A stretch of 64,000 bases of DNA. It comes from a virus (lineage: Duplodnaviria > Caudoviricetes). Location: the IMG/VR virus record IMGVR_UViG_3300048881_000780; one strand, written 5' to 3'. Shown here piece after piece: positions 11,768 through 26,728 of this stretch; the first letter of the stretch is position 1, and each line of letters opens with the position of its first letter. A model generated the notes under the pieces. It had not been told where the DNA came from. It was given only the letters and a program-made list of their open reading frames with translations, and ran no database searches. The position numbers were made by a program, and so were the translations under genes.

Positions 11768-11907
11768 TTAAGTATATCGATATCTATCCATCAGAGTGGT
11801 ACTCGATATATGGATAAAGTGAATTTCCCCCTATCACGGTGAACTAGAGATAGTACTGTATCTCCTGTGGACCAATGAAAGAGAATTTAAATCTGCTTTA
11901 AACAAAT

Positions 11908-11995
11908 AAAAAAGGGACTCTTTCGAATCCCTTTTTACACACACATACACACACATAAGGAGTAGGAGATTTGACCTAGAAGTGGTCGTTCCTAC
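11908..11995 (-). ncRNA. Putative 88-nt GU-rich sRNA, copy 1
   Basis: TTGACG-17-TATTAT promoter; 5' hairpin; UCCUU(AUGUGUGUGU)2 linker; GNRA-loop terminator with U-tract; duplicated at 26318-26405. Confidence 0.75.
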
Positions 11996-12013
11996 AAGTT
12001 TATAATATCGGCC

Positions 12014-12030
12014 CTAACGCAGGCCGTCAA
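12014..12030. promoter_or_regulatory. 17-bp operator overlapping the -35 of the GU-rich sRNA promoter
   Basis: CTAACGCAGGCCGTCAA. Confidence 0.65.
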
Positions 12031-12189
12031 CATATAAATCACATATATTTTATTTAATTACTCTATTTTTTAGTGATATTTATCAGTTAAACCTAGTAAC
12101 TTAAGAAGAATTTATTCCCTATAAGTCTTTGAATTTTGGCCGATACATAAGAAATACAAGAAAAACTAAAAAAATACATAATTTAATTA

Positions 12190-12218
12190 TTGACGCAATA
12201 TGTTAACATTGGTACTAT
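12190..12218 (+). promoter_or_regulatory. Sigma70-type promoter with embedded operator
   Basis: TTGACG-17-TACTAT; operator TTGACGCAATATGTTAA at 12190-12206. Confidence 0.8.
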
Positions 12219-12224
12219 AGTATT

Positions 12225-12351
12225 AAGAAATGAGCTGGCCACACACCAGCAATACTCACACTTTCAAAGAATTTAGAAAGAGTTTTTCTTGGCTTAAATA
12301 AGGGCACACTTAGGATTTGTGACCCTGGGATACACACCTGGGGTCACTTTT
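12225..12351 (+). ncRNA. Putative ~127-nt CA-loop sRNA (partner 1)
   Basis: Promoter; GCTGG-CCACACA-CCAGC hairpin; terminator GTGACCCTGGG-ATACACA-CCTGGGGTCAC-TTTT; no sizeable ORF. Confidence 0.65.
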
Positions 12352-12555
12352 AAGATTGGTACAAAATGAAGAATCTAATTATATTTTCCCTAGCGATAAT
12401 TTTAACATTTACGATATTTTACAAAGTATCTTGTCCAGTGGTGGAAATGGTCAAGGGAACAAGTTATGAAAATTTATTCTCCCCTTGCCTTAACTACTGT
12501 AAATTTCTAGATAATTTAAATTAAAATACGATAAGCTAATTACAGGAGCTTATTT

Positions 12556-12843
12556 ATGATCAACGTAAAAATAGAACTGCTAGCATTTGATGAAGAAGAG
12601 CGTTTTAGAGAAATCCAGTTCAAAGACGAAAATTTCACTCTTGAGGATATTTTTATCCAAGGCCAGAGTCACGGTGGACCAAATCGAGATTTACCCTCTG
12701 CGAGTGCAGGAGATGTAATTCATTTAAATGGGAAATTGATTCTTATTTCTAAGATAGGTTTTAAAGAGATCGATCAAGAACAGTACGAAAAATATAAAAA
12801 TATTCCAAGAAGAGATAGAACTTTTTATAAGTTTGATAGTTAA
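12556..12843 (+). CDS. Hypothetical protein
   Basis: AGGAG RBS; S.S.GDVI motif. Confidence 0.7.
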   Translation: MINVKIELLAFDEEERFREIQFKDENFTLEDIFIQGQSHGGPNRDLPSASAGDVIHLNGKLILISKIGFKEIDQEQYEKYKNIPRRDRTFYKFDS

Positions 12844-13025
12844 CTTCTTTTATTCTTTAATCGTTCTATATAGGATTTTAACTCATCGATTCTACCATTA
12901 GATATTCTCTCTCTTGTGTTGGAGTTTTCTTTTAATCTCTTGATCAATTCTACAAGTTCTTCTTTCTTTGTCATAAGCTCCTCTACTTTAATTATATACT
13001 CTTTCAAAGTGATACAATCTTCCTC

Positions 13026-13054
13026 TTGACACGGTACGTTAAAAAATATATAAT
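13026..13054 (+). promoter_or_regulatory. Consensus promoter with embedded operator
   Basis: TTGACA-17-TATAAT; operator TTGACACGGTACGTTAA at 13026-13042. Confidence 0.85.
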
Positions 13055-13072
13055 TTAACTACAGGGGGCATT

Positions 13073-13300
13073 ATGAATTTAAGTCTAAATCAAAAGATCA
13101 GTATCAAGGGTGAACTTGCAAAAAGGGGAATTGTCTCTCTCGCTGCTATGAATACTAAAAAAGAAGCCATTCACTATTGGAATATGGCATATGGAACAAG
13201 TATTCTTAAATTCTTAAATCCTACTAGATATAAGACTCTTCGTTTAGATATCAGAGGTCCTTCTTTTGGGATTGATTATCTTCAAAAAATGGCATCATAA
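13073..13300 (+). CDS. Hypothetical protein
   Basis: RBS AGGGGG; downstream of a consensus promoter. Confidence 0.7.
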   Translation: MNLSLNQKISIKGELAKRGIVSLAAMNTKKEAIHYWNMAYGTSILKFLNPTRYKTLRLDIRGPSFGIDYLQKMAS

Positions 13301-13566
13301 TGAAAGATTTAACTGATTACCAAAAGAGAGCTCTAGAAGAGCATAAAGAGTCCCTTACTGAACTTGGGTATACCCATCGAGGTGAAGAGGTTAAGGACGT
13401 CATTTTCGAGGTTCTAGATACCCTTGAGAGAAGATATAAGTTTGATCTCGAGATAAATAACGACTTAGAAGATGAAGTTGAATCAATAATTCATCAATAT
13501 ACTTTAGAGAAGTTAATTGAACTTGAAGAATTCAAGAAAGTGCTCAAATCGAGGACTCTTAAATGA
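13300..13566 (+). CDS. Hypothetical protein
   Basis: Coupled ORF. Confidence 0.7.
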   Translation: MKDLTDYQKRALEEHKESLTELGYTHRGEEVKDVIFEVLDTLERRYKFDLEINNDLEDEVESIIHQYTLEKLIELEEFKKVLKSRTLK

Positions 13567-13997
13567 AAACGAGATATCCAAGTATAGATAAAATTTTAAA
13601 AGAAATTAAGAAGCCTACTTTGATCGCAATAAATAAAGATCCCAATATCTCTAACGAAGAAATTTTAGACGATTTCTATGAAGTAGTAAGTGATCCAATG
13701 TGTGAAATTAATGAACTCTGTGATTTAGAGCTTATTATTGAGCGCAAGAACTCTGAGCCTCGTGTTTTAGTTAGGATTGTAGATGAACAACTAGAAATTC
13801 AGCTACTCGATAGTTGCGATCGCTGTGCTGGTACAGGCCAGAGTATGGAGATGGTGTGCTATGGGGATATGCCGATTGAAAAATATGGAGACTGTCCCGA
13901 TTGTGAGTCTACTGGATTTATCTATCCCTACAAAAAAGAGCTAAAACCTAAGGATGAATTACACCCTAATTTATGGATCAGATCTCTACTGTCCTAG
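13563..13997 (+). CDS. DnaJ-type zinc-finger protein
   Basis: CDRCAGTG...CPDCESTG; C-terminal NLWIRSLLS. Confidence 0.7.
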   Translation: MKTRYPSIDKILKEIKKPTLIAINKDPNISNEEILDDFYEVVSDPMCEINELCDLELIIERKNSEPRVLVRIVDEQLEIQLLDSCDRCAGTGQSMEMVCYGDMPIEKYGDCPDCESTGFIYPYKKELKPKDELHPNLWIRSLLS

Positions 13998-14046
13998 AAA
14001 TTACAAAAAGCTTGACGCGCTAAAGTACGTAATATAAATCCTAGTA

Positions 14047-14346
14047 ATGGATTATTTAATTAGACGCCTTGATTTTAAAATCAATAATTTACAAGAATAC
14101 AAGAAATTAGATGACTTCTTGAAGACTTTAAACTCTCCCTATGTGGAAGTCCCGATTGAGGAGAATTCTGACTCTCTAGGGATTCAAAAAATTTGCTCAT
14201 ATTGTAAAGTATCAAAGGATGCCACTAAGGAATTCTTCTTTAAAGATAAATCACGAAAAGACTCTCTCTCTTGCATTTGTAAGGACTGTAAAAGAATGGC
14301 CAATAGTGGTCTAAGTGTTGATGAAATAAGGGCCGTAATTGAGTGA
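14047..14346 (+). CDS. Zinc-finger protein (type found at the N-terminus of phage HNH proteins)
   Basis: KICSYCKVSK...FF.KD...CICKDC. Confidence 0.65.
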   Translation: MDYLIRRLDFKINNLQEYKKLDDFLKTLNSPYVEVPIEENSDSLGIQKICSYCKVSKDATKEFFFKDKSRKDSLSCICKDCKRMANSGLSVDEIRAVIE

Positions 14347-14347
14347 A

Positions 14348-14551
14348 TTACAGTAAGAATCCATTTATTTTAAATTCATCTATAATCTCTTGTCTTAAAT
14401 CACTTTCAGTATCTTGACCTAGTATTTTATGATCTAGAATCTTCTTAATATTTTCTCTCTTAAGAGCAATTTCCTTTTCAACGCTCTTAACTTCTTTCTT
14501 TTGTTCCATGGCCGAAGTGTTTATTGCTAGTAATAGAATAAGAATTTTCAT
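14348..14551 (-). CDS. Small putative exported protein
   Basis: MKILILLLAINTSA after a GAGG RBS. Confidence 0.55.
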   Translation of the reverse strand: MKILILLLAINTSAMEQKKEVKSVEKEIALKRENIKKILDHKILGQDTESDLRQEIIDEFKINGFLL

Positions 14552-14591
14552 AACAACCTCATATTGCAGTCTTTTTGTGTGTACATATATT

Positions 14592-14608
14592 TTAACACTA
14601 ACCGTCAA
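14592..14608. promoter_or_regulatory. 17-bp palindromic operator
   Basis: TTAACACTAACCGTCAA. Confidence 0.8.
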
Positions 14609-14659
14609 CTTTAACAAATTACTCAAACGCCTGATATAATATAAACAGGAGTTTTATTT

Positions 14660-15310
14660 ATGAGTGAACCAAAATCCTTTTTGATGGTCTATGTAGTGGG
14701 ATTAGTAACTGCATTATTAGTTATTCTCATCATTTCTATTTTATTTATCTTTTTCTATAGGGCCATTAGAGATAGGAGAAAGTATACCTGGGAATACGAG
14801 GTGACTCCTTGTGGATGGAACTCTCCTCTATTAATTAAATTTAAGACTAATTTGACCTATCTGGAGTCTCGCTACAAATGGGATATGCACTTATCTAAAT
14901 TATTTAAAAACCAAGCGAAAGAGCAAGAAATAGTGTTAAGAAATCCATACCACAATCTTAACTTGAAAATATTGGAGACACCATTTGAGGTGCTCTCAAT
15001 TAATAATTCAATAGTTGAAAAACCAGACCATTTTGAATGGTATTTAACCTCGGCAAATTTCTTTGGGGCGATGTATTTTGAATTTAACTTACACTTTTCA
15101 AGAAATGATCTCTTAAATCTTGATTATAGTGAAATACTCAAATTGATAAAAAGTGACGTTCCAAATGGCCTTAAAAAGAAACTCCAGGTTAAGGAGTATA
15201 TAGAACTTAAGATAAGAGATCGTATGGGAATTTTACCGATGGTAAAAGTTAGTGAACCTAGGGCCACATATTATCGAGATCGGTTCAAATATTATCGGTT
15301 TCGTAATTAG
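14660..15310 (+). CDS. N-terminally membrane-anchored protein (paralog of 43131)
   Basis: TM helix; shared NPYHN..LK.LE. Confidence 0.7.
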   Translation: MSEPKSFLMVYVVGLVTALLVILIISILFIFFYRAIRDRRKYTWEYEVTPCGWNSPLLIKFKTNLTYLESRYKWDMHLSKLFKNQAKEQEIVLRNPYHNLNLKILETPFEVLSINNSIVEKPDHFEWYLTSANFFGAMYFEFNLHFSRNDLLNLDYSEILKLIKSDVPNGLKKKLQVKEYIELKIRDRMGILPMVKVSEPRATYYRDRFKYYRFRN

Positions 15311-15753
15311 GACCATTTATCTTTATAAAAGTAGTCCGGAGTAATAGACTTTAGATACTCGAGTGATTCGTCTGAGAATAGTTGGTAGTTTTCGTGATAC
15401 TCTTTTAATTCATATGGAAGCTCTTTAAAAACTTTATAACTATTTATTCTCATCTTTGATAAGTTATCAACTTTAGAGCTTATTACAGAGCCAGGCTCTT
15501 CAATTGTGTAAGAGTAATCACCCTCTTTATTTTCATTATTTAATTCAATTATATAGTATTTATCTTTTATTTCTTCACCACCAAAGTAATACTCCTCTAC
15601 TTTTACTTCGTATTTAGAGGCCCTATAGGCCCTCGCAACTAATTCACCATTAAGTAAGGCATCTTCTCTCTTTGTGTGAATACTTGCAATATATGTATGA
15701 CCAGTCTCTTCGTTTCCCCAACGACAAAGCCTAGCGATATAGAGACTACTCAT
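15307..15753 (-). CDS. Hypothetical protein
   Basis: ORF in an operon. Confidence 0.7.
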   Translation of the reverse strand: MSSLYIARLCRWGNEETGHTYIASIHTKREDALLNGELVARAYRASKYEVKVEEYYFGGEEIKDKYYIIELNNENKEGDYSYTIEEPGSVISSKVDNLSKMRINSYKVFKELPYELKEYHENYQLFSDESLEYLKSITPDYFYKDKWS

Positions 15754-15931
15754 TATAGTTGGACCTTTTATGTTTTACTTTTCTAGAGTATTTTTTCTTA
15801 TCTTTTTCTACTCTAGTTGGCTTTGGTAGTACGCGAGGTTTATACATACTCTTATATAATAGTAAACACTCCAAGCACTTGTTCTTTGGAGAGGATTTTC
15901 CATTATATTTAGGATGTTTCTTGCATTTCAT
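15746..15931 (-). CDS. Small basic Cys/His protein
   Basis: CKKHPKY...CLEC; KKKYSRK.KHK tail. Confidence 0.6.
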   Translation of the reverse strand: MKCKKHPKYNGKSSPKNKCLECLLLYKSMYKPRVLPKPTRVEKDKKKYSRKVKHKRSNYNE

Positions 15932-15944
15932 GATTACATTATAA

Positions 15945-16190
15945 TTATTTAAGGTTATTTATAAAATCCGATATTTTTACATTTGCTTTATTGTTAACAA
16001 AGCTATCAAGAGTTAAGAAATTCGTAATATCACTAGTGTCTAAATCTAGTTTATCGGCAAGAGTTGATTTCGCTAGATTATTATCTTTAAGATATAGGGC
16101 CAATTTCTCTTGTTCTATAAATAGCAACTCATAATTCGCTAGAGAATCCATGAGTCTATTATCTATCACTTTTCCAAGTACACTAGCCAT
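15945..16190 (-). CDS. Possible XRE-like helix-turn-helix protein
   Basis: YLKDNNLAKSTLADKLDLDTSDITNFL. Confidence 0.5.
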   Translation of the reverse strand: MASVLGKVIDNRLMDSLANYELLFIEQEKLALYLKDNNLAKSTLADKLDLDTSDITNFLTLDSFVNNKANVKISDFINNLK

Positions 16191-16779
16191 TATTCCTCTC
16201 TAGCTCCTTGTATATTTTTGAAACGTATTTAATTTGGTGAGAACAGTCATCTAGTCCCTTGTGGGCAGTTCCTACAAACTTCATAGTTTTCTTTGGATCA
16301 ATATCTAAAATACTTTTACCCAAATCAACCATAGTTCTAACATCTCTATAATGTCTAAAGTGAACAGGACACTTAGCTCCAACAGCTTTATAGGCATTCT
16401 CGATCCAAACACAGTCTGCACTTGAACCATTTCCCCATAAAGTAGCGTGATCAACATCGTGCTCTTTTAAACACTCCTGAAACCAATTATTAAAGCGCTC
16501 TAAGACAAATGGTAGTTCTAATCCCGTTTGAATGGCACTAACGAATACTTCGTTAACTGCATCTCTATCTTGAGTGAGCCACCACTTTACAGTCTCTCCA
16601 GCAACATCAAGACCATGTTTAACGGAAGAGGCAGGATCAACAAGCATTGTAAATCTACTTAAGTTCTTTCCTGTTTTTATATTGAACATAATAGCTGAAA
16701 TTTCAATTAATGCTGGTTTATCAGAGTCTCCATCTAGGCACTCTAAATCTATCATACAGTCTAGTCTATTCATCTCCAT
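16183..16779 (-). CDS. DEDDh 3'-5' exonuclease (exonuclease VIII / Rv2179c-like)
   Basis: MIDLECL, WGNGSSAD, RDVRT, H..LDD..HQ. Confidence 0.85.
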   Translation of the reverse strand: MEMNRLDCMIDLECLDGDSDKPALIEISAIMFNIKTGKNLSRFTMLVDPASSVKHGLDVAGETVKWWLTQDRDAVNEVFVSAIQTGLELPFVLERFNNWFQECLKEHDVDHATLWGNGSSADCVWIENAYKAVGAKCPVHFRHYRDVRTMVDLGKSILDIDPKKTMKFVGTAHKGLDDCSHQIKYVSKIYKELERNNG

Positions 16780-16919
16780 CCTCTTGTTTGTAAGCGCAAT
16801 GATCCCATGGGCAGGGTTCAGTGCAATATGGACATTTACTCTCTTCTTTAACTTCTTCTTTGATTTTTTCTTGGTTTTGTTGTGTGTTCATATTGATATT
16901 ATATATCATTTTCTCAATC

Positions 16920-16936
16920 TTGACAAACCGTGTTAA
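16920..16936. promoter_or_regulatory. 17-bp palindromic operator
   Basis: TTGACAAACCGTGTTAA. Confidence 0.8.
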
Positions 16937-17076
16937 ATACAAGATTACACAACAATGTAAAAATAATGATTTAGGATGAACTGATTGAGAATACACTAGA
17001 TAGTAATATTAGATCTTAGAAAATTTGAAATGGTAGAATATATAGAGATAATGTAAGTTAATTATCTAGTAGAAGG

Positions 17077-17098
17077 ATGTCCTCCACTTGGAGGACAT
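17077..17098 (-). terminator. Hairpin downstream of the oxidase gene
   Basis: ATGTCCTCC-ACTT-GGAGGACAT. Confidence 0.55.
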
Positions 17099-17105
17099 TG
17101 TATTT

Positions 17106-17717
17106 TTAGGCCACGGCCTTATTATTTGCCATTCGAGCGCAGGCCCTAAGCATCTCACAGTAAATATCAGCAGATAATTCAATATTCTTCTTTACTCCCT
17201 CTGTATCACCAAGAAGCTCGACGGCCTTAAAGGCACTCTCTAAGTGATCTGGGTCCTCTTCTGAGTGAACAATAATGAATTTAGCACATCTCTCTCCATG
17301 AGCATTTCTAACATCTTCTACTAGTTTCTTATCTACGTAGGCCGCGAATCCCTCTAGTGCTAGGGCCCAACCAAATGGTGCAATTCCATCAGATTCTAAA
17401 GCGATTTTTCTTTGAACTTCATATACTTTCTTCGTTTCCATAAGTTCTGGGTAATTCTCTATACTCTCCCCCATTCTCTTGAGATCTCCCATTGCCAGGT
17501 TTTCATGACCCGCTTCTTCATCAGCGTGGGCCAGCCATCTCTTTTTTAATTCTGGAATCTTGGCACATTCACTAAAATGCCTAAGAAGTGATTCCGATTG
17601 AGATGAATAGTAGTAGGTTTGAGCAAGAAACCACTTGTAGACCTCTGGGTTTGTTAAATCTACTTCTCTAACTGTTGCGATCATCTTTTGTACATTCGCT
17701 TCAAGTAATTCTTTCAC
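17106..17717 (-). CDS. Heme-oxygenase-like (iron-containing redox enzyme) diiron oxidase
   Basis: H..EE.GHE, ALEG, H.EED..H ligand pattern. Confidence 0.8.
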   Translation of the reverse strand: MKELLEANVQKMIATVREVDLTNPEVYKWFLAQTYYYSSQSESLLRHFSECAKIPELKKRWLAHADEEAGHENLAMGDLKRMGESIENYPELMETKKVYEVQRKIALESDGIAPFGWALALEGFAAYVDKKLVEDVRNAHGERCAKFIIVHSEEDPDHLESAFKAVELLGDTEGVKKNIELSADIYCEMLRACARMANNKAVA

Positions 17718-17875
17718 TTTGTCTCCTATTTAAATATATGTTAAATAAATACATTTTATGCCAGCTTGTGTAATTATCAAAATACAGGCACTTATGACTA
17801 TTATCATTATAACATTCGTATATAAAAATTGCTTATTTACTGCAAATTTCATTTAGTTAAAGGTATAGTCGCGCT

Positions 17876-19249
17876 ATGAAGAAAACGGTGTCCAATATTG
17901 TATTTAAATGTCTTTTTAAGTTTATGCATTCTCATGGCGTGGATGAAGAAAAACTATTATTAGGAACTGACCTAGAAAAGAGAGACTTTAATAACTTACT
18001 ATCTCGTCAAACTTGGGATACCTATCTTCGGGTATTAGATAATCTAGAGCCATTCTTAGATGATCAGGCCATTGACGAAATTGGACTATACGGAGTAACT
18101 GGACGAGAGTACCAGAAATTAACAAATATCGTATCTGGAATCTTTTCAACTAAGTTACTATATTGGGCCCAATCGAAATTCATGGGCAATTACTTATTTA
18201 ATAATATTAAGTTCGAGTATAAAAAGGATAGTCGAAATTTAGTTTCCTTAGAAATGAGTGTAGAGGGAGAGCCACCGCCGATGTTCTTTTGGAAAGGATA
18301 CGTATCTGTTTATCGGCATTTTCCAAAAATATTCGACAACACTCTATCTTCTAAAGTGGTTCTAACTAAAGTAGATAGTAATACGGCCAGATTTTTAATC
18401 TCCCCTCCAATTCATCAAAGTATTTTTAAGAGGGTTTTATTAACACTGTCTGCACCCTTTAGAGCGAGCAATACTGTTGAACTTCTATCAGAGTTAGAAC
18501 AAAGTAAGCGAGAAGTTTCCGAGTTAAATATGCTCTTATCAGATAAACTTAATGATAAAAGTATTCAGCTTATGTCCCTATCGCACGACCTTTCAAATCC
18601 TCTTTTTATTATAACGGGACTAAAAAAGAGAATCGATCGAGCAAAGAGTTTAGAAGAAGTTAAAGGTTATATAGAGAGCATAAATTCTCATGCCACTATC
18701 ATGGCACATACGATAAAGCAGACTAGAAGTTTTCTAGAAAAAGAAAATAATGGTTATAAGAAGTGTCCTATTTCAATGAAGAAGCTAATTGATGACTCTA
18801 TTCAGTTAACGCAAGCTAGAGCAGATAAAAAAGAAATTGAGCTGAAGATTAATGTAGTTGACTCTACAATTTTAGGTGACGAGAGTGCTATCTCTTGTTC
18901 GGTTATAACTAATATTATAACTAATGCCATAAAATTTTCTAATACAGGTGGGACTATAGAAATTAATAGTTACCCCAAGTATCATGATGCCATTCTTGAG
19001 GTTATAGATTTTGGTACAGGGATGGATGAAGAAACAAGAAAGAGAATTCAAAATGGGGACAAAGTTATTTCCAAAGAAGGTACTGTAAAGGAGCAGGGTT
19101 CAGGCTTTGGAATGATGATAGCTAAGAATATAATTGAAAAATTTGACGGAACCATGCATATTGAAACTAACGAGAATATCGGAACAAAATTTACAATTGT
19201 ATGGCCACAAGCTATGCAACATCTTTCAAATCTTCACCCTTCGATGTAG
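17876..19249 (+). CDS. Soluble sensor histidine kinase
   Basis: SHDLSNPL, NIITNAIKF, DFGTG, GSGFG; no TM segment. Confidence 0.9.
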   Translation: MKKTVSNIVFKCLFKFMHSHGVDEEKLLLGTDLEKRDFNNLLSRQTWDTYLRVLDNLEPFLDDQAIDEIGLYGVTGREYQKLTNIVSGIFSTKLLYWAQSKFMGNYLFNNIKFEYKKDSRNLVSLEMSVEGEPPPMFFWKGYVSVYRHFPKIFDNTLSSKVVLTKVDSNTARFLISPPIHQSIFKRVLLTLSAPFRASNTVELLSELEQSKREVSELNMLLSDKLNDKSIQLMSLSHDLSNPLFIITGLKKRIDRAKSLEEVKGYIESINSHATIMAHTIKQTRSFLEKENNGYKKCPISMKKLIDDSIQLTQARADKKEIELKINVVDSTILGDESAISCSVITNIITNAIKFSNTGGTIEINSYPKYHDAILEVIDFGTGMDEETRKRIQNGDKVISKEGTVKEQGSGFGMMIAKNIIEKFDGTMHIETNENIGTKFTIVWPQAMQHLSNLHPSM

Positions 19250-19889: not shown

Positions 19890-20152
19890 GGAGATATAAT
19901 GCCTTTGTTATATGTTATTACCAAAGGAAATCTCAAGTTATGAGAATCTCTGATGTATAACCTTAAATTAGTGAGTATTAATATTGGCAGAGTCACTTCC
20001 TTTTGCCTGTTTTTTATTTTCCAACTATATAGGCCTTATCGTAATTTCAATAACAATGTGGGAAAATCATCATTTTTGCATTAACTTAAGTCCAAATTTG
20101 AATATTTAATATAATGAGTGGTTCTTCCATGTTCGATACTCTATATTATTTT

Positions 20153-20169
20153 ATGACAAAATGTGTTAT
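20153..20169. promoter_or_regulatory. Degenerate 17-bp operator
   Basis: ATGACAAAATGTGTTAT. Confidence 0.5.
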
Positions 20170-20190
20170 AATTTCAATAGGAGGCAAAAA

Positions 20191-20547
20191 ATGAAAAATG
20201 ATTTTTTTGATAAATTAGGAACATCTATTATCCATATACTAGCACTCCCTTTATATTGTTATTTCTTTACTATTCACACCTATGAAGAAGTTATGAAGAA
20301 TAACGACAATTTCAGAGATAAGTTATTTTTAAAGAAGATGAATCTATTAGACAATAAACACGTAAGTGACTTTTTAGAGTGGAATAAGAGATACCTGTAC
20401 GAGCGAGAAAATGGCCCCCAGGATGATATAGAGTCAAAGTTTGAAAGGCTTCAAATAGAAAACGAGGAATTGCTTAGTTTTATATCTGAAAATGAATTAG
20501 ATGATCAACTCGTAGAATTTAAAAAGATTCCAAAACTTATCAAATAG
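20191..20547 (+). CDS. Hypothetical protein
   Basis: AGGAGG RBS before ATG 20191. Confidence 0.65.
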   Translation: MKNDFFDKLGTSIIHILALPLYCYFFTIHTYEEVMKNNDNFRDKLFLKKMNLLDNKHVSDFLEWNKRYLYERENGPQDDIESKFERLQIENEELLSFISENELDDQLVEFKKIPKLIK

Positions 20548-20556
20548 GTAAACATT

Positions 20557-20889
20557 ATGAAAATAGAGTATTATCAAGAACAAAAAAAGGCCTTACGAGA
20601 TCAAGCTTGTGAAGAATTAATGATTTTTCTAAGAGATTGGTTTAAATCTCATCCAAACCTTAGACTTGTTGGTGGAAATGCCACCTGGCTACTTGAAGTA
20701 AATTATAAAGATACTGGTAAGTGGGTCACAGTGGATGAGAGAGGTGGGAAGTTTTGCTACAGCGATATGGAGAGTGATGATCTAGATCCTATCTACATTA
20801 CCCATGAGTGGAGAATGATAGAAGATTTACTGCTAGATTGGAGTTGTGAAAATGTCTACCCTTTTGGTGAAATTAATCACGATATTTAA
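20557..20889 (+). CDS. Hypothetical protein
   Basis: ORF. Confidence 0.7.
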   Translation: MKIEYYQEQKKALRDQACEELMIFLRDWFKSHPNLRLVGGNATWLLEVNYKDTGKWVTVDERGGKFCYSDMESDDLDPIYITHEWRMIEDLLLDWSCENVYPFGEINHDI

Positions 20890-21079
20890 CAATAATACAC
20901 ATTAGAAATTGAGTTATATATGAATAAGAAGAAGAAAAAAGAAGAACTATTAGAAGAAGTTGATATTGATGCTGTTAACGCCTTTGATGAATTAGAACAT
21001 GAAAAAGATATTTCATCAGGTCTACTGGTCCCCCGTGGAAATAAGGATCAATTCAAAAAAACAAAAAGAAGGGTGAAAA

Positions 21080-21430
21080 ATGATTAAAGTAATTAGAACT
21101 CTTGTTTTGGGTTACGATCAAGATAGCGACTCATTTTATCTAAAAGGTAGAGATATAAATAAAAGTTTAAAAAGAATTGATCTAGAGGAAACTGATCAAA
21201 TAAGTAAGCTTATAGAAGAATATTCCAAAGATTTTCACATTAATACATCTTCTTCTCTTCATGAATTAGTACTATCAAAGAAAGATCTACTCTGGAGTGC
21301 AGAAGGAATTCTTTTAAATAAAAAGAATCTTAAATATAATAGGTCCAAAAAGCACTATGACTATCATTTACTGAGTAAAGTTATAAACTTTAAAAAAGAT
21401 AATAATGGATACTTTCATATGATCATTTAA
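21080..21430 (+). CDS. Hypothetical protein
   Basis: ORF with RBS. Confidence 0.65.
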   Translation: MIKVIRTLVLGYDQDSDSFYLKGRDINKSLKRIDLEETDQISKLIEEYSKDFHINTSSSLHELVLSKKDLLWSAEGILLNKKNLKYNRSKKHYDYHLLSKVINFKKDNNGYFHMII

Positions 21431-21496
21431 AATGAAATCAATGTAGATGATGTTAACTAATTTAGTAATCAGGAATAAGAAGAGGTAATCGATACT

Positions 21497-21877
21497 ATGA
21501 ATGATAAAAAGCTAAATGATCTAGCTTGTAACTCTCCTGCTTCTCTTGCAGAGTACATCCAATCTGATAATATTAAAAGTTTAACTAAAGCTATGGCCAT
21601 TGTCGCGCTAGGAGAAAGGGTTTATCCAAGTTATTTTAATTTCTTAAAAAACTATATTTCTGATAAAGAGGATATTGTTAGAGAGTTAGCTTTTAGAGCG
21701 CTCTCTTTTTATTATACTGAGTGTAATAACGGACAATATGATTACCTTTTAGCGGAATTTAGAGAAAGATTGCAGACTGAAAAGGCCCCTGGAGTTAGAA
21801 GACGTCTAGAGTCTCTAATAAAATTTATGCAAAAGTATGAAGATCTAGATAACTTTAATAAATTCTCAACCAGTTAA
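21497..21877 (+). CDS. HEAT-repeat-like protein (paralog of 48997)
   Basis: AIVALGER...VRELAFRAL. Confidence 0.65.
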   Translation: MNDKKLNDLACNSPASLAEYIQSDNIKSLTKAMAIVALGERVYPSYFNFLKNYISDKEDIVRELAFRALSFYYTECNNGQYDYLLAEFRERLQTEKAPGVRRRLESLIKFMQKYEDLDNFNKFSTS

Positions 21878-21892
21878 CAATTAAGGAAAATC

Positions 21893-21909
21893 TTAACGAC
21901 TTGCGTTAA
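21893..21909. promoter_or_regulatory. 17-bp palindromic operator
   Basis: TTAACGACTTGCGTTAA. Confidence 0.8.
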
Positions 21910-21948
21910 AATCTAAATCATGGTAAACTTTATACAAGCGAGGTTATT

Positions 21949-22182
21949 ATGATTGAAAGAGAAGTTATTAATTCAAACAATAATGTATCACTAATTAAAG
22001 AAAACCATGAAGATGAATTCTGCTACGTTGTAGAAATCATCGGTACAGATAACTCTAAGAGTTTCTTTGATTGTGGTGAATCAAAAAATAAGGCCTCTGA
22101 TTTATACGATAAATTATCAAGTATTTCATACAGTAAGAGTGTGGATGTTAAGATGAGTGAAAACTCTCATCTTGTGGCATAA
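21949..22182 (+). CDS. Hypothetical protein
   Basis: GAGG RBS. Confidence 0.65.
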   Translation: MIEREVINSNNNVSLIKENHEDEFCYVVEIIGTDNSKSFFDCGESKNKASDLYDKLSSISYSKSVDVKMSENSHLVA

Positions 22183-22258
22183 GTTATTAAATGAGCGCAA
22201 AAGAGAATATTCTTAAAATAGCAACTAATAGCGTGATCTAAAAGACTGGGAGTAAGAA

Positions 22259-22480
22259 ATGGAAGAATTAGATTATTACCAACGAAAATATGACCTCGAT
22301 GTCGAAATGTCTCATTTTAGTGAGTTCTCATCTCTTAAAGGTGTTATATCGGTTGAAGGTGATACATTCTTTGCTACTGTAGGCGAAGGAGATGCTCAGT
22401 GTATTGGATCTGGAAGCACTAGGGCACACGCACTTGTAGACTGTATGAATAATTTTTGGACAGAGAAAGCTAAAGCTTAA
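22259..22480 (+). CDS. Hypothetical protein
   Basis: GGGAG RBS. Confidence 0.65.
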   Translation: MEELDYYQRKYDLDVEMSHFSEFSSLKGVISVEGDTFFATVGEGDAQCIGSGSTRAHALVDCMNNFWTEKAKA

Positions 22481-22901
22481 TGATGCGACCCTTCTCTCTT
22501 TTAAAGTATTTATCAAAATCTGGAAACTTTCCTCTGATATTTGATAAGTGAGTGCTTAATAACTGTCCTGAAAGTGGCAAGTGAATATCATCTTCGTCCT
22601 TGCTTAATGCCACTTTCAATATTCTTATTTCATTATTTGTGAATTTTATTAACTCGCTCTTATACTTTAGGGTTTTATTATCAACGTCTAAAATCATTCT
22701 CTTATACTTAATTATTGGAGATCCCTTTTTTACCAAGTCAGATATTTCATTAATTTCTAAAAGCAGTGAGTTCTTTGTGCTCTTCTTTAGTTCGGTAGAA
22801 TTTTTTATTGCAAAGGATAACTTCTTTAGTTTTGAATCTAAGTTACTTTTATTATTCTTATTCTCTATGGTGGAAACTAATACTCCCCTATCTTTTATCA
22901 T
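22470..22901 (-). CDS. Protein with an OmpR/PhoB-type winged-helix domain and no receiver domain
   Basis: LDVDNKTL....IKFT..E.RIL..L...THLSNIRGK. Confidence 0.6.
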   Translation of the reverse strand: MIKDRGVLVSTIENKNNKSNLDSKLKKLSFAIKNSTELKKSTKNSLLLEINEISDLVKKGSPIIKYKRMILDVDNKTLKYKSELIKFTNNEIRILKVALSKDEDDIHLPLSGQLLSTHLSNIRGKFPDFDKYFKREKGRIIKL

Positions 22902-23076
22902 CGAAAAACTCCTTATATAAATAATATCTAATCAAAGGCATAAATCAAATAGAAATCACTTAAGAAATCTTAAGTGAATAATTCTTGCAACTTGCCGTAA
23001 TATAAGAGGAAAATTAGATATATTGAGGCCTAAATAAATTAATGTTAGTATCTCTATATTAGAAGAAGGAGTTTTT

Positions 23077-23973
23077 ATGAGTTTTAAAAAGTTTTTATCA
23101 TATTTTTTTCAATATCTATTTGTCTTAATTATTGTTGTAACCCCTTTTGGTGCTCAAGAGACTCCAAGTATTAAATATATACTACTATTGCTCATTCCCA
23201 TGTTGATTATGTCACCTCACCTAATTTCTAAATTAGAGTCAAAGTTGAAACTCAATATTAAGACCAAGCATAGAGTAATTGTTTCAATGATTCTCTACTC
23301 TACTTTTAGCTCATTTATTATTAACGAAGATGCTAATAGAAGAGAAATTGCTAAGGAGAGTCAAGATCGTGAAGATTTTACAAAAAATAAAAAAGAAAAA
23401 TTAGATTATATTAAAAGGTTAAACTCTCAAAAGAAATATGATCGTGCATTAGTTGTAATTAAAGAATATGAAAAATTTAATGATGACGATGTAAAGAAAC
23501 TAAGAAGAGAGTTGAATTCAAAAATTAGAAAAAGAGATATTAAAAAATTAGATAAACTTGCTAGAAGTACAAGTTCAAAACAACCAAAGCTTCTACTTGA
23601 TACATATAGAAAGCTTTTAAAGCTCGATCCTCAAAATAAGAGATACAAGAAGAAAGTAGCCCATTATCAAGAAGTGGTAGATAAAATCATTATGGAAAAG
23701 AGATTAGCAGATGTTCGAGCAAAGAAGATTTCTAATCAGTTCAGTGGTTGGGATGGCGCCCATATAAAATTAGAGAGACTGGTTAAAGAAAATCTAAAAG
23801 ACCCTGATTCTTACGAACACGTAAAGAGTCTATATAATGATCACAAAACGTATTTAATAGTAGAACTTACTTATAGGGCCAAGAATAGTTTTGGTGCAAA
23901 GGTTCTTGGTAGCGTTCAAGCAAAAGTTGATATTAATTCAGGTACAGTATTAAAAATAATTAATCAAAAGTAA
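23077..23973 (+). CDS. Membrane protein
   Basis: N-terminal TM helices; C-terminal LKDPDSY...YRAKNSFGA domain. Confidence 0.75.
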   Translation: MSFKKFLSYFFQYLFVLIIVVTPFGAQETPSIKYILLLLIPMLIMSPHLISKLESKLKLNIKTKHRVIVSMILYSTFSSFIINEDANRREIAKESQDREDFTKNKKEKLDYIKRLNSQKKYDRALVVIKEYEKFNDDDVKKLRRELNSKIRKRDIKKLDKLARSTSSKQPKLLLDTYRKLLKLDPQNKRYKKKVAHYQEVVDKIIMEKRLADVRAKKISNQFSGWDGAHIKLERLVKENLKDPDSYEHVKSLYNDHKTYLIVELTYRAKNSFGAKVLGSVQAKVDINSGTVLKIINQK

Positions 23974-24540
23974 CTAAATCAGGGACTTGATCCAAGGGTT
24001 ATCAGGTCCCACTTTAAAAGGGCCCGAACTCTCTCTATTTTCAAAACCAAAGATATTATCCAATTCGCTCCATTTGATATTTTTAATAACTTCACTAACC
24101 ATGACCATTTTATCTCTCATACCTACTGACATTAGAAAGTCTTCTTTTGATATAGTGAAATCTAGTTTTTTCTGTTTCTTGCACTCATTTGGTGATAATT
24201 TTCTATAGAAGTAAATTAAGTTCGTTTCTCTGTAAAAGGCAATAACTTGTGCACTCGATAGCCTGTTAAATGCAAATAAATCTGCCAATACTCGGATGAG
24301 ATTATCACATGACTCAAATATTTTATCTGAAGAATCCATTAGCCCAATTTTTTCATATGCATCCGAATGGATTATCTTACAAACTTCTGCAAGATCAATT
24401 ATCATTTTATCAGTATCTACCTGATAAGAAATTCCAAGTTCTCTATTTAAATAATTTCGATCATCAAAAAGATCGTTAAGATTGGAATATTTAAAATGTC
24501 CTTTTATATGTAAAATACTCACTATAGCTCCCCTTTTCAT
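23974..24540 (-). CDS. Hypothetical protein carrying the shared C-terminal motif
   Basis: Ends NPWIKSLI. Confidence 0.7.
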   Translation of the reverse strand: MKRGAIVSILHIKGHFKYSNLNDLFDDRNYLNRELGISYQVDTDKMIIDLAEVCKIIHSDAYEKIGLMDSSDKIFESCDNLIRVLADLFAFNRLSSAQVIAFYRETNLIYFYRKLSPNECKKQKKLDFTISKEDFLMSVGMRDKMVMVSEVIKNIKWSELDNIFGFENRESSGPFKVGPDNPWIKSLI

Positions 24541-24563
24541 AATTATATCACATTAGTTAAATA

Positions 24564-24592
24564 TTGACAAATTGCGTTAATACATATATTAT
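24564..24592 (+). promoter_or_regulatory. Promoter with embedded operator
   Basis: TTGACA-17-TATTAT; TTGACAAATTGCGTTAA at 24564-24580. Confidence 0.85.
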
Positions 24593-24607
24593 AAAAAAGA
24601 GGTTTCT

Positions 24608-24940
24608 ATGTTAAATTCTAAAAGTATAAAAAATGCTAAAGTAATTGATCGTCTAATTGCCTATGATGGAATTTGTTCATCATATTTAATCGATGGTTCT
24701 TACTATGTGTCACATTTCTATAATCAAGATAGTAAATTCTATTATGACTACTATTTTAAAGCTTCTAAGAGTTTAATTGATGAGCTTAAAGAGGAGCAGA
24801 TAGATTTTAAGACTTTTATAGAGTCAGCTAGTGAAATTTATAAGGTGAGATTCTGCATCAAATTAAAAGAGTATCTCGTAGATAAAATTTCAATATCTGA
24901 TCTTGGGAATTTTATGCCACAGGCCGGAGAGTATCTATAA
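24608..24940 (+). CDS. Hypothetical protein
   Basis: GAGG RBS; coupled to the MTase. Confidence 0.7.
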   Translation: MLNSKSIKNAKVIDRLIAYDGICSSYLIDGSYYVSHFYNQDSKFYYDYYFKASKSLIDELKEEQIDFKTFIESASEIYKVRFCIKLKEYLVDKISISDLGNFMPQAGEYL

Positions 24941-25827
24941 TGCAATCTATTGCGACTAGAATTTATCTCATGGCCAGAAAGAATGGAAATCAATTTAAGA
25001 TATCGGATATCTACAAATACTTCCCAAAAAACAAAAGAGAGACTGTTAGAGCTAGAGTTTACACTAATTTAGGTTCGCTCTTTGAAAAGGTTTCTAGAGG
25101 CGTATACTGTATAAAAAGAAATGAAAATAGCGCTCTACTAATTAATGGAGACGGCAGAGATTTATCAAGTATTCCGGATGCTTCCATTGATGCCATTATT
25201 ACTGATCACCCATGGGTAGATAATTTAGCGCTCAAGGGTACTAGAAAAAATATGGCCAAGTACGATGGGTTTTTATATGAATTTGAAGATTTCTTAGAAA
25301 AGTATCGAGTACTAAAAGATGGATCCTTTTTAATTGAGAACTTACCTCAAGAGAGTGAAACAAATTTTGAATATCTCCATCAGATCAAGAAAATGGCAAT
25401 TAAAGCTGGTTTTAAGTTTTGGTGTGTCACAGTTTGGAAAAAAGGTAAACTAGTTCACAACACGGGAAGAGTTGCTAAGAATAAAGAATTCCTATATTTC
25501 TTCACTAAGGGAAAGGCCAGAAAATTAAGAGTCAATAAGAATACGAGACAATCTGATTTAATGTCAGGGACAACTCAAATAGTCCCATGTGAACTTAATT
25601 TTCAACCAGCTTCTCCAAAGAATAAAAAACACCAGGCCGAGAAGCCAATTGAATTACTCAAGGCACTTATCGAATTGGTTACCAATAAAGGCGAATTGGT
25701 TTTAGATCAATTTGCAGGCAGTTTTAATATTGTAGATGCCTGTCTTGAGACACAGAGAGATTGCATCGCAATAGAGATCAATGAAGAATTCTTTAATAGA
25801 TACACAAGAGAGAAAGAGGCCAGCTAA
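24940..25827 (+). CDS. Beta-class N4-C/N6-A DNA methyltransferase with N-terminal winged-helix-like extension
   Basis: IITDHPW (motif IV variant), H.AEKP..LL, VLDQFAGS. Confidence 0.85.
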   Translation: MQSIATRIYLMARKNGNQFKISDIYKYFPKNKRETVRARVYTNLGSLFEKVSRGVYCIKRNENSALLINGDGRDLSSIPDASIDAIITDHPWVDNLALKGTRKNMAKYDGFLYEFEDFLEKYRVLKDGSFLIENLPQESETNFEYLHQIKKMAIKAGFKFWCVTVWKKGKLVHNTGRVAKNKEFLYFFTKGKARKLRVNKNTRQSDLMSGTTQIVPCELNFQPASPKNKKHQAEKPIELLKALIELVTNKGELVLDQFAGSFNIVDACLETQRDCIAIEINEEFFNRYTREKEAS

Positions 25828-25830
25828 TAA

Positions 25831-26118
25831 CTATATTGTTTTCTCTGAACTCACGATGTGATCAATTTCTTTTTCACTTAAGTTTCCGGAAAATTTTAAA
25901 AGTTCTCTTATATTGAATTTAACCTCAATAAATCTAAGTCTAAATGATTGTTTCCTGATTTCTTGATAGAGTTCTCTACTGCTTTTATCGGGGTAGCCAT
26001 AGCACAAAATTAGACCACGAATCGAAAAATTTATTACTATAAATAGAGATAATGGCACGAGCACAATATAGATGAAAATATTTAATAGTATTAACGGTAT
26101 ATATAGAAGTCGATACAT
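25831..26118 (-). CDS. Small membrane protein
   Basis: Hydrophobic N-terminus. Confidence 0.55.
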   Translation of the reverse strand: MYRLLYIPLILLNIFIYIVLVPLSLFIVINFSIRGLILCYGYPDKSSRELYQEIRKQSFRLRFIEVKFNIRELLKFSGNLSEKEIDHIVSSEKTI

Positions 26119-26281
26119 AAACTCTACTCTCTAGTTAAGATGAATTTTACACCATTAATTACCGATCTAATTAGATAAAGCCAGTGCCCTGCGTAAGCTG
26201 TAAGAATCTGACTCGCTCCAATCAAAAAGAAAATAATGATCAATACATTTAATACGTTCATAAGAATTCCTTTCTTTTATT

Positions 26282-26298
26282 ATAACACCTCATGTTAA
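26282..26298. promoter_or_regulatory. 17-bp palindromic operator
   Basis: ATAACACCTCATGTTAA. Confidence 0.65.
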
Positions 26299-26317
26299 TT
26301 AAAAATACACCAGAAAT

Positions 26318-26405
26318 AAAAAAAGGGACTCTCTCGAATCCCTTTTTTACACACATACACACACATAAGGAGTAGGAGATTTGACCTAGAATTGGTCGTT
26401 CCTAC
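26318..26405 (-). ncRNA. Putative 88-nt GU-rich sRNA, copy 2
   Basis: Near-identical to 11908-11995 including the promoter; changes confined to loops and linker (GAAA to GAGA tetraloop). Confidence 0.75.
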
Positions 26406-26423
26406 AAGTTTATAATATCGGCC

Positions 26424-26440
26424 CTAACGCAGGCCGTCAA
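26424..26440. promoter_or_regulatory. 17-bp operator overlapping the sRNA -35
   Basis: CTAACGCAGGCCGTCAA. Confidence 0.65.
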
Positions 26441-26567
26441 CAAATAAAAACAAATAAAAGTCGTTTAAAATGCATATTTATATGATTTTTAATACTTAGG
26501 AACGATAACTTAAGTGGCCAAAATTAGGCCGATTGTGAATATTTTTTGATATTTTATAGATTTTATT

Positions 26568-26596
26568 TTGACACAATGTGTTAATAAATATAAACT
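26568..26596 (+). promoter_or_regulatory. Promoter with embedded operator
   Basis: TTGACA-17-TAAACT; TTGACACAATGTGTTAA at 26568-26584. Confidence 0.75.
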
Positions 26597-26602
26597 AATA
26601 TT

Positions 26603-26728
26603 ACACAAACGGAACGAAAGTACCGCTGTAGACGCACTCTTCGAGTTTTTCCCAACAAAAAGAGAGCACACATTCACACAATAAGGAAAGGCCCTCTCAC
26701 ACACACATCACACAAGGGGGCCTTTTTT
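26603..26728 (+). ncRNA. Putative ~126-nt CA-rich sRNA (partner 2)
   Basis: Promoter; GCACACATTCACACAATAAGGA; terminator AAAGGCCCTCT-(CA-rich 17-nt loop)-AGGGGGCCTTTTTT. Confidence 0.65.

What the first reader, a model, noticed from the sequence alone, without database searches (positions are those of the whole stretch)
11908..26728. Each GU-rich sRNA faces a divergent ~126-nt CA-rich RNA: a repeated sRNA / anti-sRNA module
Seen: at both loci, 130-160 bp away, a plus-strand promoter drives a non-coding unit of similar length (12225-12351 and 26603-26728) ending in a terminator whose loop displays ACACA. Partner 2 contains CACACATTCACACAATAAGGA (26667-26687), which nearly matches the exact complement of the GU seed (CACACATACACACACATAAGGA), plus a 17-nt CA loop. 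Partner 1 shows ACAC four times, twice in hairpin loops. The two partners share architecture but little sequence, and all four promoters contain the 17-bp operator. Inference: a sponge/seed pair forming a threshold switch, or CsrB-like decoys for a protein that binds ACAC loops. I know of no described system with this layout.
Basis: partly seen in the sequence, partly recalled or inferred. Interest (0 to 1): 0.8.

Follow-up and report, generated by a model that had tools for sequence, protein, structure and literature searches.

The report
Small RNA genes facing decoy RNAs
On a giant, uncultivated plasmid-like element from a hydrothermal vent, each of two copies of a small regulatory RNA gene sits back-to-back with a short unit that carries mimics of that RNA's target site; these units most likely act as decoys, a known kind of control in an unusual paired layout, but no expression or conservation could be shown.

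Summary
Two 95%-identical promoter-to-terminator sRNA genes lie on the minus strand (11903-12030 and 26312-26440). Each faces a divergent plus-strand unit of about 126 nt (12226-12351 and 26603-26728).

These two units are the only CACAC clusters in 64 kb. Each has 4 copies per 130 nt; 100 dinucleotide shuffles never reached 4.

Partner 2 is non-coding. It has the best operator promoter in the window, a strong terminator, and two tandem mimics of a "CA tract + Shine-Dalgarno" site. It is the best non-self match to the sRNA seed on either strand. Its cofold gain is -23 kcal/mol, matched by at most 1 of 100 composition-matched shuffles.

Partner 1 has the same layout, but its sites are short and its pairing is not better than shuffles. 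It has a weak U4 terminator and runs into a 52-aa hydrophobic ORF, so it may be a regulated leader.

The sRNA promoters carry only a degenerate operator.

Best reading: an sRNA with a cognate anti-sRNA (sponge), working like GcvB with AgvB/SroC or RoxS with RosA. What is new is the back-to-back, repeated, element-encoded layout.

No relatives and no RNA data exist, so function is inferred. The scan had already noted the same pairing on this DNA (e1-5762689).

The parts
11903..12030 (-). sRNA gene copy 1. The -35 box is at 12025-12030 and the -10 box at 12002-12007, with the start near 11996. The RNA has a 5' hairpin, a single-stranded anti-SD plus GU-repeat seed, and a terminator at 11909-11936 with a GAAA loop.
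   Evidence: z = -3.96
26312..26440 (-). sRNA gene copy 2, 95% identical to copy 1. The differences are one loop base, one CA unit in the seed, and the tetraloop (GAGA, still GNRA).
   Evidence: D9; z = -4.15
12190..12218 (+). Partner 1 promoter, TTGACG-17-TACTAT. The 17-bp global operator overlaps the -35 box and spacer (20.4 bits, rank 8 in the window).
12226..12351 (+). Partner 1 RNA or leader, about 126 nt. It has four CACAC motifs, a hairpin at 12234-12250 with loop CCACACA, and a terminator-like hairpin at 12319-12347 with loop AUACACA followed by U4.
   Evidence: (z = -2.49)
12304..12345 (+). Partner 1 target mimics. Site A is CACAC-UU-AGGA at 12304-12315. Site B is the terminator loop plus the G-rich 3' arm at 12329-12345. 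Both are weak (-15 to -16 kcal/mol).
12366..12524 (+). A 52-aa ORF with an N-terminal hydrophobic helix, no Shine-Dalgarno sequence and no family match. It starts 15 nt after the partner 1 hairpin and is the possible cargo if partner 1 is a leader.
26568..26596 (+). Partner 2 promoter, TTGACA-17-TAAACT. It carries the best-scoring operator of the window (23.4 bits, rank 1).
26603..26728 (+). Partner 2 RNA, about 126 nt. It has no ATG, GTG or TTG start codon and two 5' hairpins. Its terminator stem (26690-26697 with 26715-26722) has a 17-nt CA loop and is followed by U6.
   Evidence: (z = -4.28)
26665..26688 (+). Partner 2 site A. This single-stranded stretch matches the antisense of the sRNA seed at 20 of 22 aligned positions (duplex -28.4 / -28.9 kcal/mol).
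26692..26721 (+). Partner 2 site B. It combines the CA loop with the AAGGGGG 3' arm of the terminator and forms a second full seed match (-31.6 / -27.5 kcal/mol).
12007..12144 (.). Module 1 inverted pair of GGCCGAT. One copy lies beside the sRNA -10 box (12007-12013, minus strand). The other lies in the spacer between the divergent promoters (12138-12144, plus strand).
   Evidence: 7 in the window against 1.3 expected; 4 lie in the two modules
26417..26533 (.). Module 2 inverted pair of GGCCGAT (26417-26423 minus strand, 26527-26533 plus strand). Its centre-to-centre spacing is 21 bp shorter than in module 1.

Best explanation
Each module pairs a trans-acting sRNA gene with a divergent unit that presents mimics of the sRNA's target site.

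The sRNA is about 90 nt. It exposes an anti-Shine-Dalgarno UCCUU followed by a GU repeat, the kind of seed that masks a ribosome-binding site preceded by a CA tract.

Partner 2 is a stand-alone non-coding RNA with two tandem mimics (a CA tract followed by AAGGA or AAGGGGG) and no start codon. It most likely binds up to two sRNA molecules and acts as an anti-sRNA (sponge).

Partner 1 has the same layout with much weaker sites. It is either a low-affinity decoy or a leader whose read-through into the 52-aa and 95-aa ORFs is tuned by the sRNA.

Both partner promoters carry strong copies of the element's global operator, whereas the sRNA promoters carry only a degenerate one. Loss of the global repressor would therefore switch on the decoys and lift the sRNA's translational brake at the same time as transcription opens.

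Shown in silico: gene anatomy, folds, complementarity, motif statistics and operator scores. Inferred: expression, pairing in vivo, the direction of control and the regulatory logic.
For: - Unit boundaries. Identity between the sRNA copies starts and stops at the promoter and terminator, and all differences lie in unpaired positions.
- CACAC clusters. There are 4 per 130 nt at both partners and nowhere else; the shuffle maximum was 3, reached in 2 of 100 shuffles.
- Partner 2 is the best non-self seed match in 128 kb of sequence. Its cofold gain of -23 kcal/mol is matched by 0-1 of 100 dinucleotide shuffles, and it has two separate sites.
- The complementarity is confined to the seed. It is not part of a larger duplication.
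- Partner 2 has no start codon and folds well (z = -4.3), with site A unpaired.
- The two partners have the same architecture at the same offsets: AGGA at +86 and +81, loop centre at +108 and +103, and 126 nt in total.
- The motif 'ACAC, 0-6 nt, G-rich SD' occurs twice in each partner and otherwise mainly at real start sites such as 36703, 55397(-) and 60571.
- Operator strength is asymmetric between partner and sRNA promoters.
- The logic has precedent in GcvB/AgvB/SroC and in RoxS/RosA under CcpA (PMC3879156, PMC4474525, PMC8216469).
Against: - No transcript evidence exists. No related sequence was found anywhere, so neither the units nor the pairing could be tested for conservation.
- Partner 1 pairing is explained by its composition alone. 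Its hairpin has only U4, and an ORF follows.
- There are only two modules. They may descend from one duplication (weak similarity in the spacer), so they are not independent.
- CA-rich leaders are not enriched at start sites in this window (GU part alone, p = 0.085). The sRNA's natural mRNA targets are therefore unidentified.
- In the best mRNA candidate (57238) the CA tract may lie in the -10 region rather than in the transcript.
Confidence: 0.4

Rival explanations
1. The partners are targets, not decoys. They would be 5' leaders regulated by the divergent sRNA, as in the 'unconventional' type I toxin-antitoxin loci (zorO-orzO/zorP-orzP, tisB-istR-1, shoB-ohsC). Alternatively the sRNA could control termination at the leader hairpin. 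In module 1 the sRNA would then control the 52-aa hydrophobic peptide.
For: - The sRNA and target are divergent and non-overlapping, in duplicated loci. This matches the zor-orz layout with 18-21 nt pairing to a long 5' UTR (PMC3919570).
- Partner 1 is followed after 15 nt by a 52-aa ORF with an N-terminal hydrophobic helix and no SD.
- The partner 1 hairpin has only U4, so read-through is plausible.
- Site B overlaps the terminator loop and 3' arm in both partners, so pairing could interfere with hairpin formation.
Against: - The module with the ORF has the poor complementarity (at most about 11 interrupted nt, not better than shuffles).
- The module with 22-nt complementarity has no ORF. The sequence after its strong U6 terminator holds only non-hydrophobic 25-29-aa frames.
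- The 52-aa ORF matches no toxin family even at E = 10 and has no paralogue in the window.
Confidence: 0.25
2. The CA-rich units are decoys for an RNA-binding protein that recognises CACAC (or ACA...GGA) elements, in the manner of CsrB/RsmZ or CrcZ. The GU sRNA would be a competitor or be unrelated.
For: - Short repeated motifs are kept while the rest of the sequence is free to diverge. This is the pattern of protein-titrating RNAs.
- Some motifs sit in hairpin loops.
- ACA followed by GGA resembles CsrA-type sites (my own knowledge, not tested).
Against: - There are only 2-4 motifs per RNA.
- The loops display CACAC, not GGA.
- None of about 80 window proteins matched Hfq, CsrA, ProQ/FinO or any other RNA-chaperone family, although only 64 of 361 kb is visible.
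- The 20-of-22 seed match and the second full site of partner 2 go far beyond what a short protein motif needs.
Confidence: 0.1
3. There is no dedicated function. The CA tracts would be low-complexity debris or partial copies of the sRNA seed that happen to lie between an ordinary operator promoter and a hairpin.
For: - There are only two cases, possibly from one duplication.
- The element is an orphan and nothing is shown to be expressed.
- Operator promoters are everywhere on this element: about 24 sites in 64 kb.
Against: - Both units are significantly structured.
- The units share length and site positions while sharing no sequence.
- Partner 2 has the best operator in the window and a clean terminator.
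- The two top CACAC clusters both lie beside the two sRNA genes, on the divergent strand. This is roughly a 5e-4 coincidence by simple arithmetic on window fractions (inference).
Confidence: 0.2

Closest known systems
GcvB sRNA with its sponges AgvB (independent gene in phage-derived DNA of EHEC) and SroC (mRNA-derived)
   Same: An unstructured GU-rich seed pairs with CA-rich elements at or just upstream of ribosome-binding sites. A CA-rich anti-sRNA mimics the target and sequesters the sRNA. AgvB is a stand-alone gene on a mobile element (PMC3879156, PMC4474525, bioRxiv 10.1101/2021.04.25.441314).
   Different: There is no sequence or Rfam relation. Here the seed also contains an anti-SD. The sRNA and its decoy are both encoded by the same element, back-to-back and in repeated modules. 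Any dependence on Hfq is unknown.
RoxS/FsrA with the sponge RosA in Bacillus subtilis (and RsaI in S. aureus)
   Same: A stand-alone sponge carries two SD-like sites that bind the anti-SD-like regions of the sRNA. The sponge is held off by a transcriptional repressor (CcpA) that also represses the sRNA's target genes, so derepression acts at both levels (PMC8216469).
   Different: The seed chemistry differs (C-rich with G-rich there, GU with CA here). RosA and roxS are not neighbours and are chromosomal. The repressor here is an unidentified element-wide operator-binding protein.
Divergent ('unconventional') type I toxin-antitoxin loci: zorO-orzO/zorP-orzP, tisB-istR-1, shoB-ohsC
   Same: The sRNA gene is divergent from, and does not overlap, the RNA it pairs with. 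Complementarity is short (18-21 nt). The loci are duplicated (PMC3919570).
   Different: Partner 2 encodes no peptide at all. The module that has a small hydrophobic ORF shows only weak pairing. No toxin family match was found.
csRNAs (cia-dependent sRNAs) of Streptococcus
   Same: Several near-identical copies of a roughly 90-nt sRNA with an anti-SD segment (my own knowledge). Rfam csRNA gave only a chance-level hit, 21.8 bits against a gathering score of 57, and that hit was on partner 2.
   Different: There is no homology, and csRNAs are not described with adjacent decoy genes.
KorA/KorB-type global operator regulons of large plasmids
   Same: One palindromic operator sits on many core promoters, including both partner promoters.
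   Different: The motif differs and the regulator is unidentified. This concerns the wiring of the modules, not the RNA pair itself.

Membership tests
Anti-sRNA / sponge RNA (functional class) | Independent transcript with its own promoter and terminator | tested here: inconclusive
   Promoters and hairpins are predicted for both units. The partner 1 terminator is weak (U4). No RNA data exist.
Anti-sRNA / sponge RNA (functional class) | Extended complementarity to the seed of the cognate sRNA, beyond what composition gives | tested here: met
   Met for partner 2: 20 of 22 aligned positions, two sites, and a cofold gain of -23 kcal/mol matched by 0-1 of 100 shuffles. Not met for partner 1: 8-13 of 100 shuffles do as well.
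Anti-sRNA / sponge RNA (functional class) | Lowers the level or activity of the sRNA in vivo | not testable with these tools
   This needs co-expression and reporter or northern experiments.
GcvB family (Rfam) | Match to the family covariance model | tested here: not met
   No Rfam family reached its gathering score in the window. No GcvB hit appeared even at E up to 5 around either module.
Type I toxin-antitoxin, divergent class | A small hydrophobic toxin ORF on the RNA targeted by the sRNA | tested here: not met
   Module 2 has no such ORF. Module 1 has a 52-aa ORF with a hydrophobic helix, but no family match and no SD.
Type I toxin-antitoxin, divergent class | About 18-21 nt of sRNA complementarity to the toxin mRNA 5' UTR | tested here: not met
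   In the only module with an ORF, pairing is at most about 11 interrupted nt, at -15 to -16 kcal/mol.
CsrB/RsmZ-type protein-titrating RNA | Many GGA motifs displayed in hairpin loops | tested here: not met
   There are one or two GGA per RNA, in linkers or stems. The loops display CACAC instead.
CsrB/RsmZ-type protein-titrating RNA | A cognate RNA-binding protein gene | tested here: inconclusive
   About 80 proteins of the window were scanned and none matched CsrA, Hfq or ProQ/FinO. About 300 kb of the element is not visible.
Element-wide operator regulon | The 17-bp palindrome overlapping the -35 box and spacer | tested here: met
   Partner 2 scores 23.4 bits (rank 1) and partner 1 scores 20.4 bits (rank 8). 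The sRNA promoters score only 11.9 bits, below all 24 clear sites.

The most novel reading that the evidence does not exclude
A self-contained post-transcriptional toggle carried by a giant mobile element. It would consist of several back-to-back sRNA/anti-sRNA gene pairs. The anti-sRNA is locked by the element's global repressor, while the sRNA lies largely outside that regulon and has its own GGCCGAT sites. Loss of the repressor, for example on entry into a naive cell, would then open transcription and at the same moment neutralise the sRNA's translational brake.
Probability: 0.2. Interest if true: 0.75.

Novelty: new variant of a known kind. Interest (0 to 1): 0.5.

Why it matters
Sponge RNAs are usually found by interactome experiments and lie far from the sRNA they control. 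A case in which the sRNA and its decoy are encoded as a compact, repeated gene pair on a mobile element would have several uses. It would give a sequence signature for finding sponge pairs by genomics alone. It would provide a portable two-RNA switch. It would also show how a giant plasmid layers translational control on top of a global repressor. If the units turn out to be ordinary leaders, the finding reduces to an orphan sRNA with a few local targets.

Tried and rejected
Searches for relatives:
- Rfam at gathering scores over the whole window, and at E up to 5 around both modules, gave nothing meaningful.
- blastn of both modules against plasmid and phage records gave no match.
- Exact seed words: viral contigs gave 0 hits. 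Metagenome contigs gave one unrelated high-GC hit, L001. GTDB genome contigs gave five chance hits, L002-L006.
- The neighbouring 95-aa protein has no relative in viral contigs. In the 5.8-billion-protein set it matches only itself, on a 361,129-bp contig.

Tools and data that were unavailable:
- No whole genome is held for the window.
The rest of the contig, including the further sRNA copies reported by other notes, could therefore not be read.
- Sequencing runs: no RNA holder is listed.
- Laying the two DNA runs gave identical sequence and no variants, so there was no comparative signal.

Ideas tested and dropped:
- Partner 2 as a relic of a larger inverted or direct copy of the sRNA gene. 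Rejected, because similarity is confined to the 22-nt seed.
- Partner 1 as a classical leader-peptide attenuator. A 23-codon ORF at 12230-12301 holds two of the CACAC motifs as His-Thr codons. Judged to be chance: the other two motifs lie outside it, and the downstream genes are ORFans.
- A general enrichment of CA-rich leaders at start sites in this window. Not significant.
- A module-specific kissing pair between the variable sRNA loop base and the cognate partner. Nothing convincing on inspection.
- Complex prediction, structure prediction and the protein atlas were not used, because no protein claim is made.

Full report
**Context.** The window has 32% GC and holds about 24 copies of a 17-bp palindromic operator on core promoters. 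It also holds a 15-bp iteron array, topoisomerase, NAD-ligase, methylase and BspA/DUF285 genes, and mostly ORFan proteins. The DNA occurs in two hydrothermal-vent metagenome runs, and one of its proteins is on record on a single 361,129-bp contig. Earlier notes of this scan call it a giant plasmid-like element (e1-5758077). I did not re-test that.

**The sRNA genes.**
- Minus-strand units at 11903-12030 and 26312-26440 are 95% identical. The identity stops just upstream of the -35 box and at the terminator.
- Each has a TTGACG-17-TATTAT promoter.
- Each folds into a 5' hairpin, a roughly 25-nt unpaired stretch (anti-SD UCCUU followed by a GU repeat) and a terminator. The z-scores are -4.0 and -4.2, and no shuffle out of 200 folds as well.
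- The few differences lie in a loop, in the number of CA units and in the tetraloop (GAAA to GAGA, still GNRA).

**The partners: the observation.**
- Plus-strand promoters start at 12190 and 26568, which is 160 and 128 bp from the sRNA -35 boxes. They would give transcripts of about 126 nt ending at hairpins: 12319-12347 followed by U4, and 26690-26722 followed by U6.
- CACAC occurs at the expected background rate in the window overall. The only clusters, apart from the antisense of the sRNA genes, are these two units. Each has 4 non-overlapping copies in 130 nt, while the maximum in 100 dinucleotide shuffles of the whole window was 1-3.
- Stable hairpins that display CACAC in a loop of 20 nt or less lie in the two partners, apart from one inside a gene at 55006(-).
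- The two top clusters both sit next to the two sRNA genes, on the divergent strand. I estimate this coincidence at roughly 5e-4.

**Pairing.**
- I scanned every 45-nt window on both strands with the single-stranded seed. Partner 2 is the best non-self site, at -28.4 against a next best of -22.4 kcal/mol (mean -8.0, sd 3.4). Two partner 1 sites are in the top 13.
- With full-length RNAs, the gain on dimerisation is -23 kcal/mol for partner 2. That is matched by 1 and 0 of 100 dinucleotide shuffles, which keep its CA richness.
- For partner 1 the gain is only -14 to -16 kcal/mol, matched by 8-13 of 100 shuffles.
- Local alignment shows that the complementarity of partner 2 is confined to 22 nt (20 matches and one gap). 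The two partners share nothing but the operator promoter. So this is not the remnant of a larger duplication.

Suboptimal duplexes show two separate full sites in partner 2.
- Site A (26665-26688) lies in the unpaired linker.
- Site B (26692-26721) combines the 17-nt CA loop with the AAGGGGG 3' arm of the terminator.
- Each site is a 'CA tract followed by an SD-like purine run', that is, a ribosome-binding-site mimic without a start codon.
- Partner 1 has the same two elements at almost the same offsets from its start: CACAC-UU-AGGA at 12304-12315, and loop AUACACA plus CCUGGGG at 12329-12345. These are short and weak (-15 to -16 kcal/mol).
- The composite motif ACAC, 0-6 nt, then AGGA/GGAG/GGGG/GGGA occurs 19 times against 9 +/- 3 in shuffles. 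It occurs twice in each partner and otherwise mostly at real start sites such as 36703, 55397(-) and 60571.

**Coding capacity.**
- Partner 2 contains no ATG, GTG or TTG on its strand, and no plausible ORF follows its terminator.
- Partner 1 contains a 23-codon frame from 12230. After 15 nt it is followed by a 52-aa ORF with a hydrophobic N-terminus but no SD, and then by a 95-aa ORFan with a good SD.
- Partner 1 may therefore be a leader.

**Promoter wiring.**
- A weight matrix from 24 clear operator sites scores partner 2 at 23.4 bits (rank 1 of all window positions) and partner 1 at 20.4 bits (rank 8).
- The sRNA promoters score only 11.9 bits, below every clear site. The claim that all four promoters contain the operator is therefore only half right.
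- The asymmetry suggests that the partners, not the sRNA, are under tight global repression.
- The sRNA promoters instead carry GGCCGAT beside the -10 box. An inverted second copy lies in the spacer of each module. Four of the seven copies in the window lie in the modules, against 1.3 expected in the whole window.

**What it most likely is.** The best-supported reading is an sRNA with a cognate anti-sRNA. Partner 2 would be a two-site target mimic, and partner 1 a weak decoy or a regulated leader. Only the anatomy and the thermodynamics are shown. Expression, pairing in vivo and the direction of control are inferred.

**Targets.** I could not identify convincing mRNA targets in this window.
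- Start regions pair better than internal controls with the full seed (p = 4e-5), as any anti-SD would. They do not pair better with the GU part alone (p = 0.085).
- In the best candidate (57238) the CA tract may fall in the -10 region rather than in the transcript.

**Comparison with known systems.**
- The logic is not new. The GU-rich R1 region of GcvB pairs with CA-rich translational enhancers at ribosome-binding sites (PMC3879156). GcvB is sequestered by SroC (PMC4474525) and by AgvB, an independently transcribed gene in phage-derived DNA (bioRxiv 10.1101/2021.04.25.441314).
[quoted passage not shown] It is repressed by CcpA, which links the transcriptional and post-transcriptional layers (PMC8216469). 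This is the same wiring I infer here.
- The gene layout recalls the divergent type I toxin-antitoxin loci zorO-orzO/zorP-orzP, which are duplicated, non-overlapping and pair over 18 nt with a long 5' UTR (PMC3919570). Membership fails, however. The module with strong pairing has no ORF, and the module with an ORF has weak pairing and no toxin family match.
- A CsrB-like protein decoy is not supported. GGA motifs are few, the loops show CACAC, and no chaperone gene was found among about 80 proteins scanned.

**Limits.**
- No relatives exist in any collection I could search.
- No RNA run is listed, and the laid DNA contigs are identical to the window.
The further sRNA copies, and the third divergent partner reported by another reading of this contig (e1-5762689, e1-5762680), could therefore not be inspected.
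- With two modules that may share ancestry (weak spacer similarity), the 'repeated module' claim rests on n = 2.

**Verdict.** The feature is real and non-random. Partner 2 is a credible anti-sRNA and partner 1 is uncertain. This is a new variant of a known kind, of moderate interest pending expression data.

Noticed in passing
window 12007-12013(-), 12138-12144(+), 26417-26423(-), 26527-26533(+): GGCCGAT occurs 7 times in the window against 1.3 expected. Four copies form an inverted pair in each module: one beside the sRNA -10 box and one in the spacer. The centre-to-centre spacings are 131 and 110 bp, which differ by 21 bp (two helical turns). This may be a module-specific regulator site.
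   Followed up: partly
window 26730-27166: A 440-nt non-coding stretch lies downstream of partner 2. It is full of TATACCTAG-type repeats and palindromes, for example 26959-26980 and 27055-27113. It may be a protein-binding region such as a partition or origin-type site.
   Followed up: partly
window 29574-29737: About ten tandem 15-bp iterons lie just upstream of a 478-aa minus-strand gene whose C-terminal part is a C5 cytosine methylase domain.
   Followed up: no
window 26124-26261 (-): A 45-aa strongly hydrophobic ORF with a good SD and its own operator promoter (26282-26298) lies directly downstream of sRNA copy 2 on the same strand. It has no family match.
   Followed up: partly
window 16183-16779 (-): An element-encoded Rv2179c-like 3'-5' exoribonuclease (Pfam E = 4e-42) lies between the two modules. 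It could matter for sRNA turnover.
   Followed up: no
window 36703-36984 (+): A small SWIB/MDM2-domain protein (E = 7e-14) is encoded about 350 bp from the start of a type IA topoisomerase gene (34203-36353, minus strand), transcribed divergently from it. Its start site carries the ACAC plus GGGA motif.
   Followed up: no
window 57190-57221, 2923-2895 (-), 14608-14578 (-): Three operator promoters have (G)TACAC at the position where the -10 hexamer is expected. CA tracts that look like leader sequence there may therefore be promoter sequence.
   Followed up: partly
L004:1384-1520, L005 (minus strand, around 7535-7680), L006:880-1020: Three Bacteroidales MAG contigs were fetched by a chance 18-mer hit. 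They share a conserved intergenic block of about 100 nt around that word. It is unrelated to this element and may be a conserved leader or sRNA of its own.
   Followed up: no
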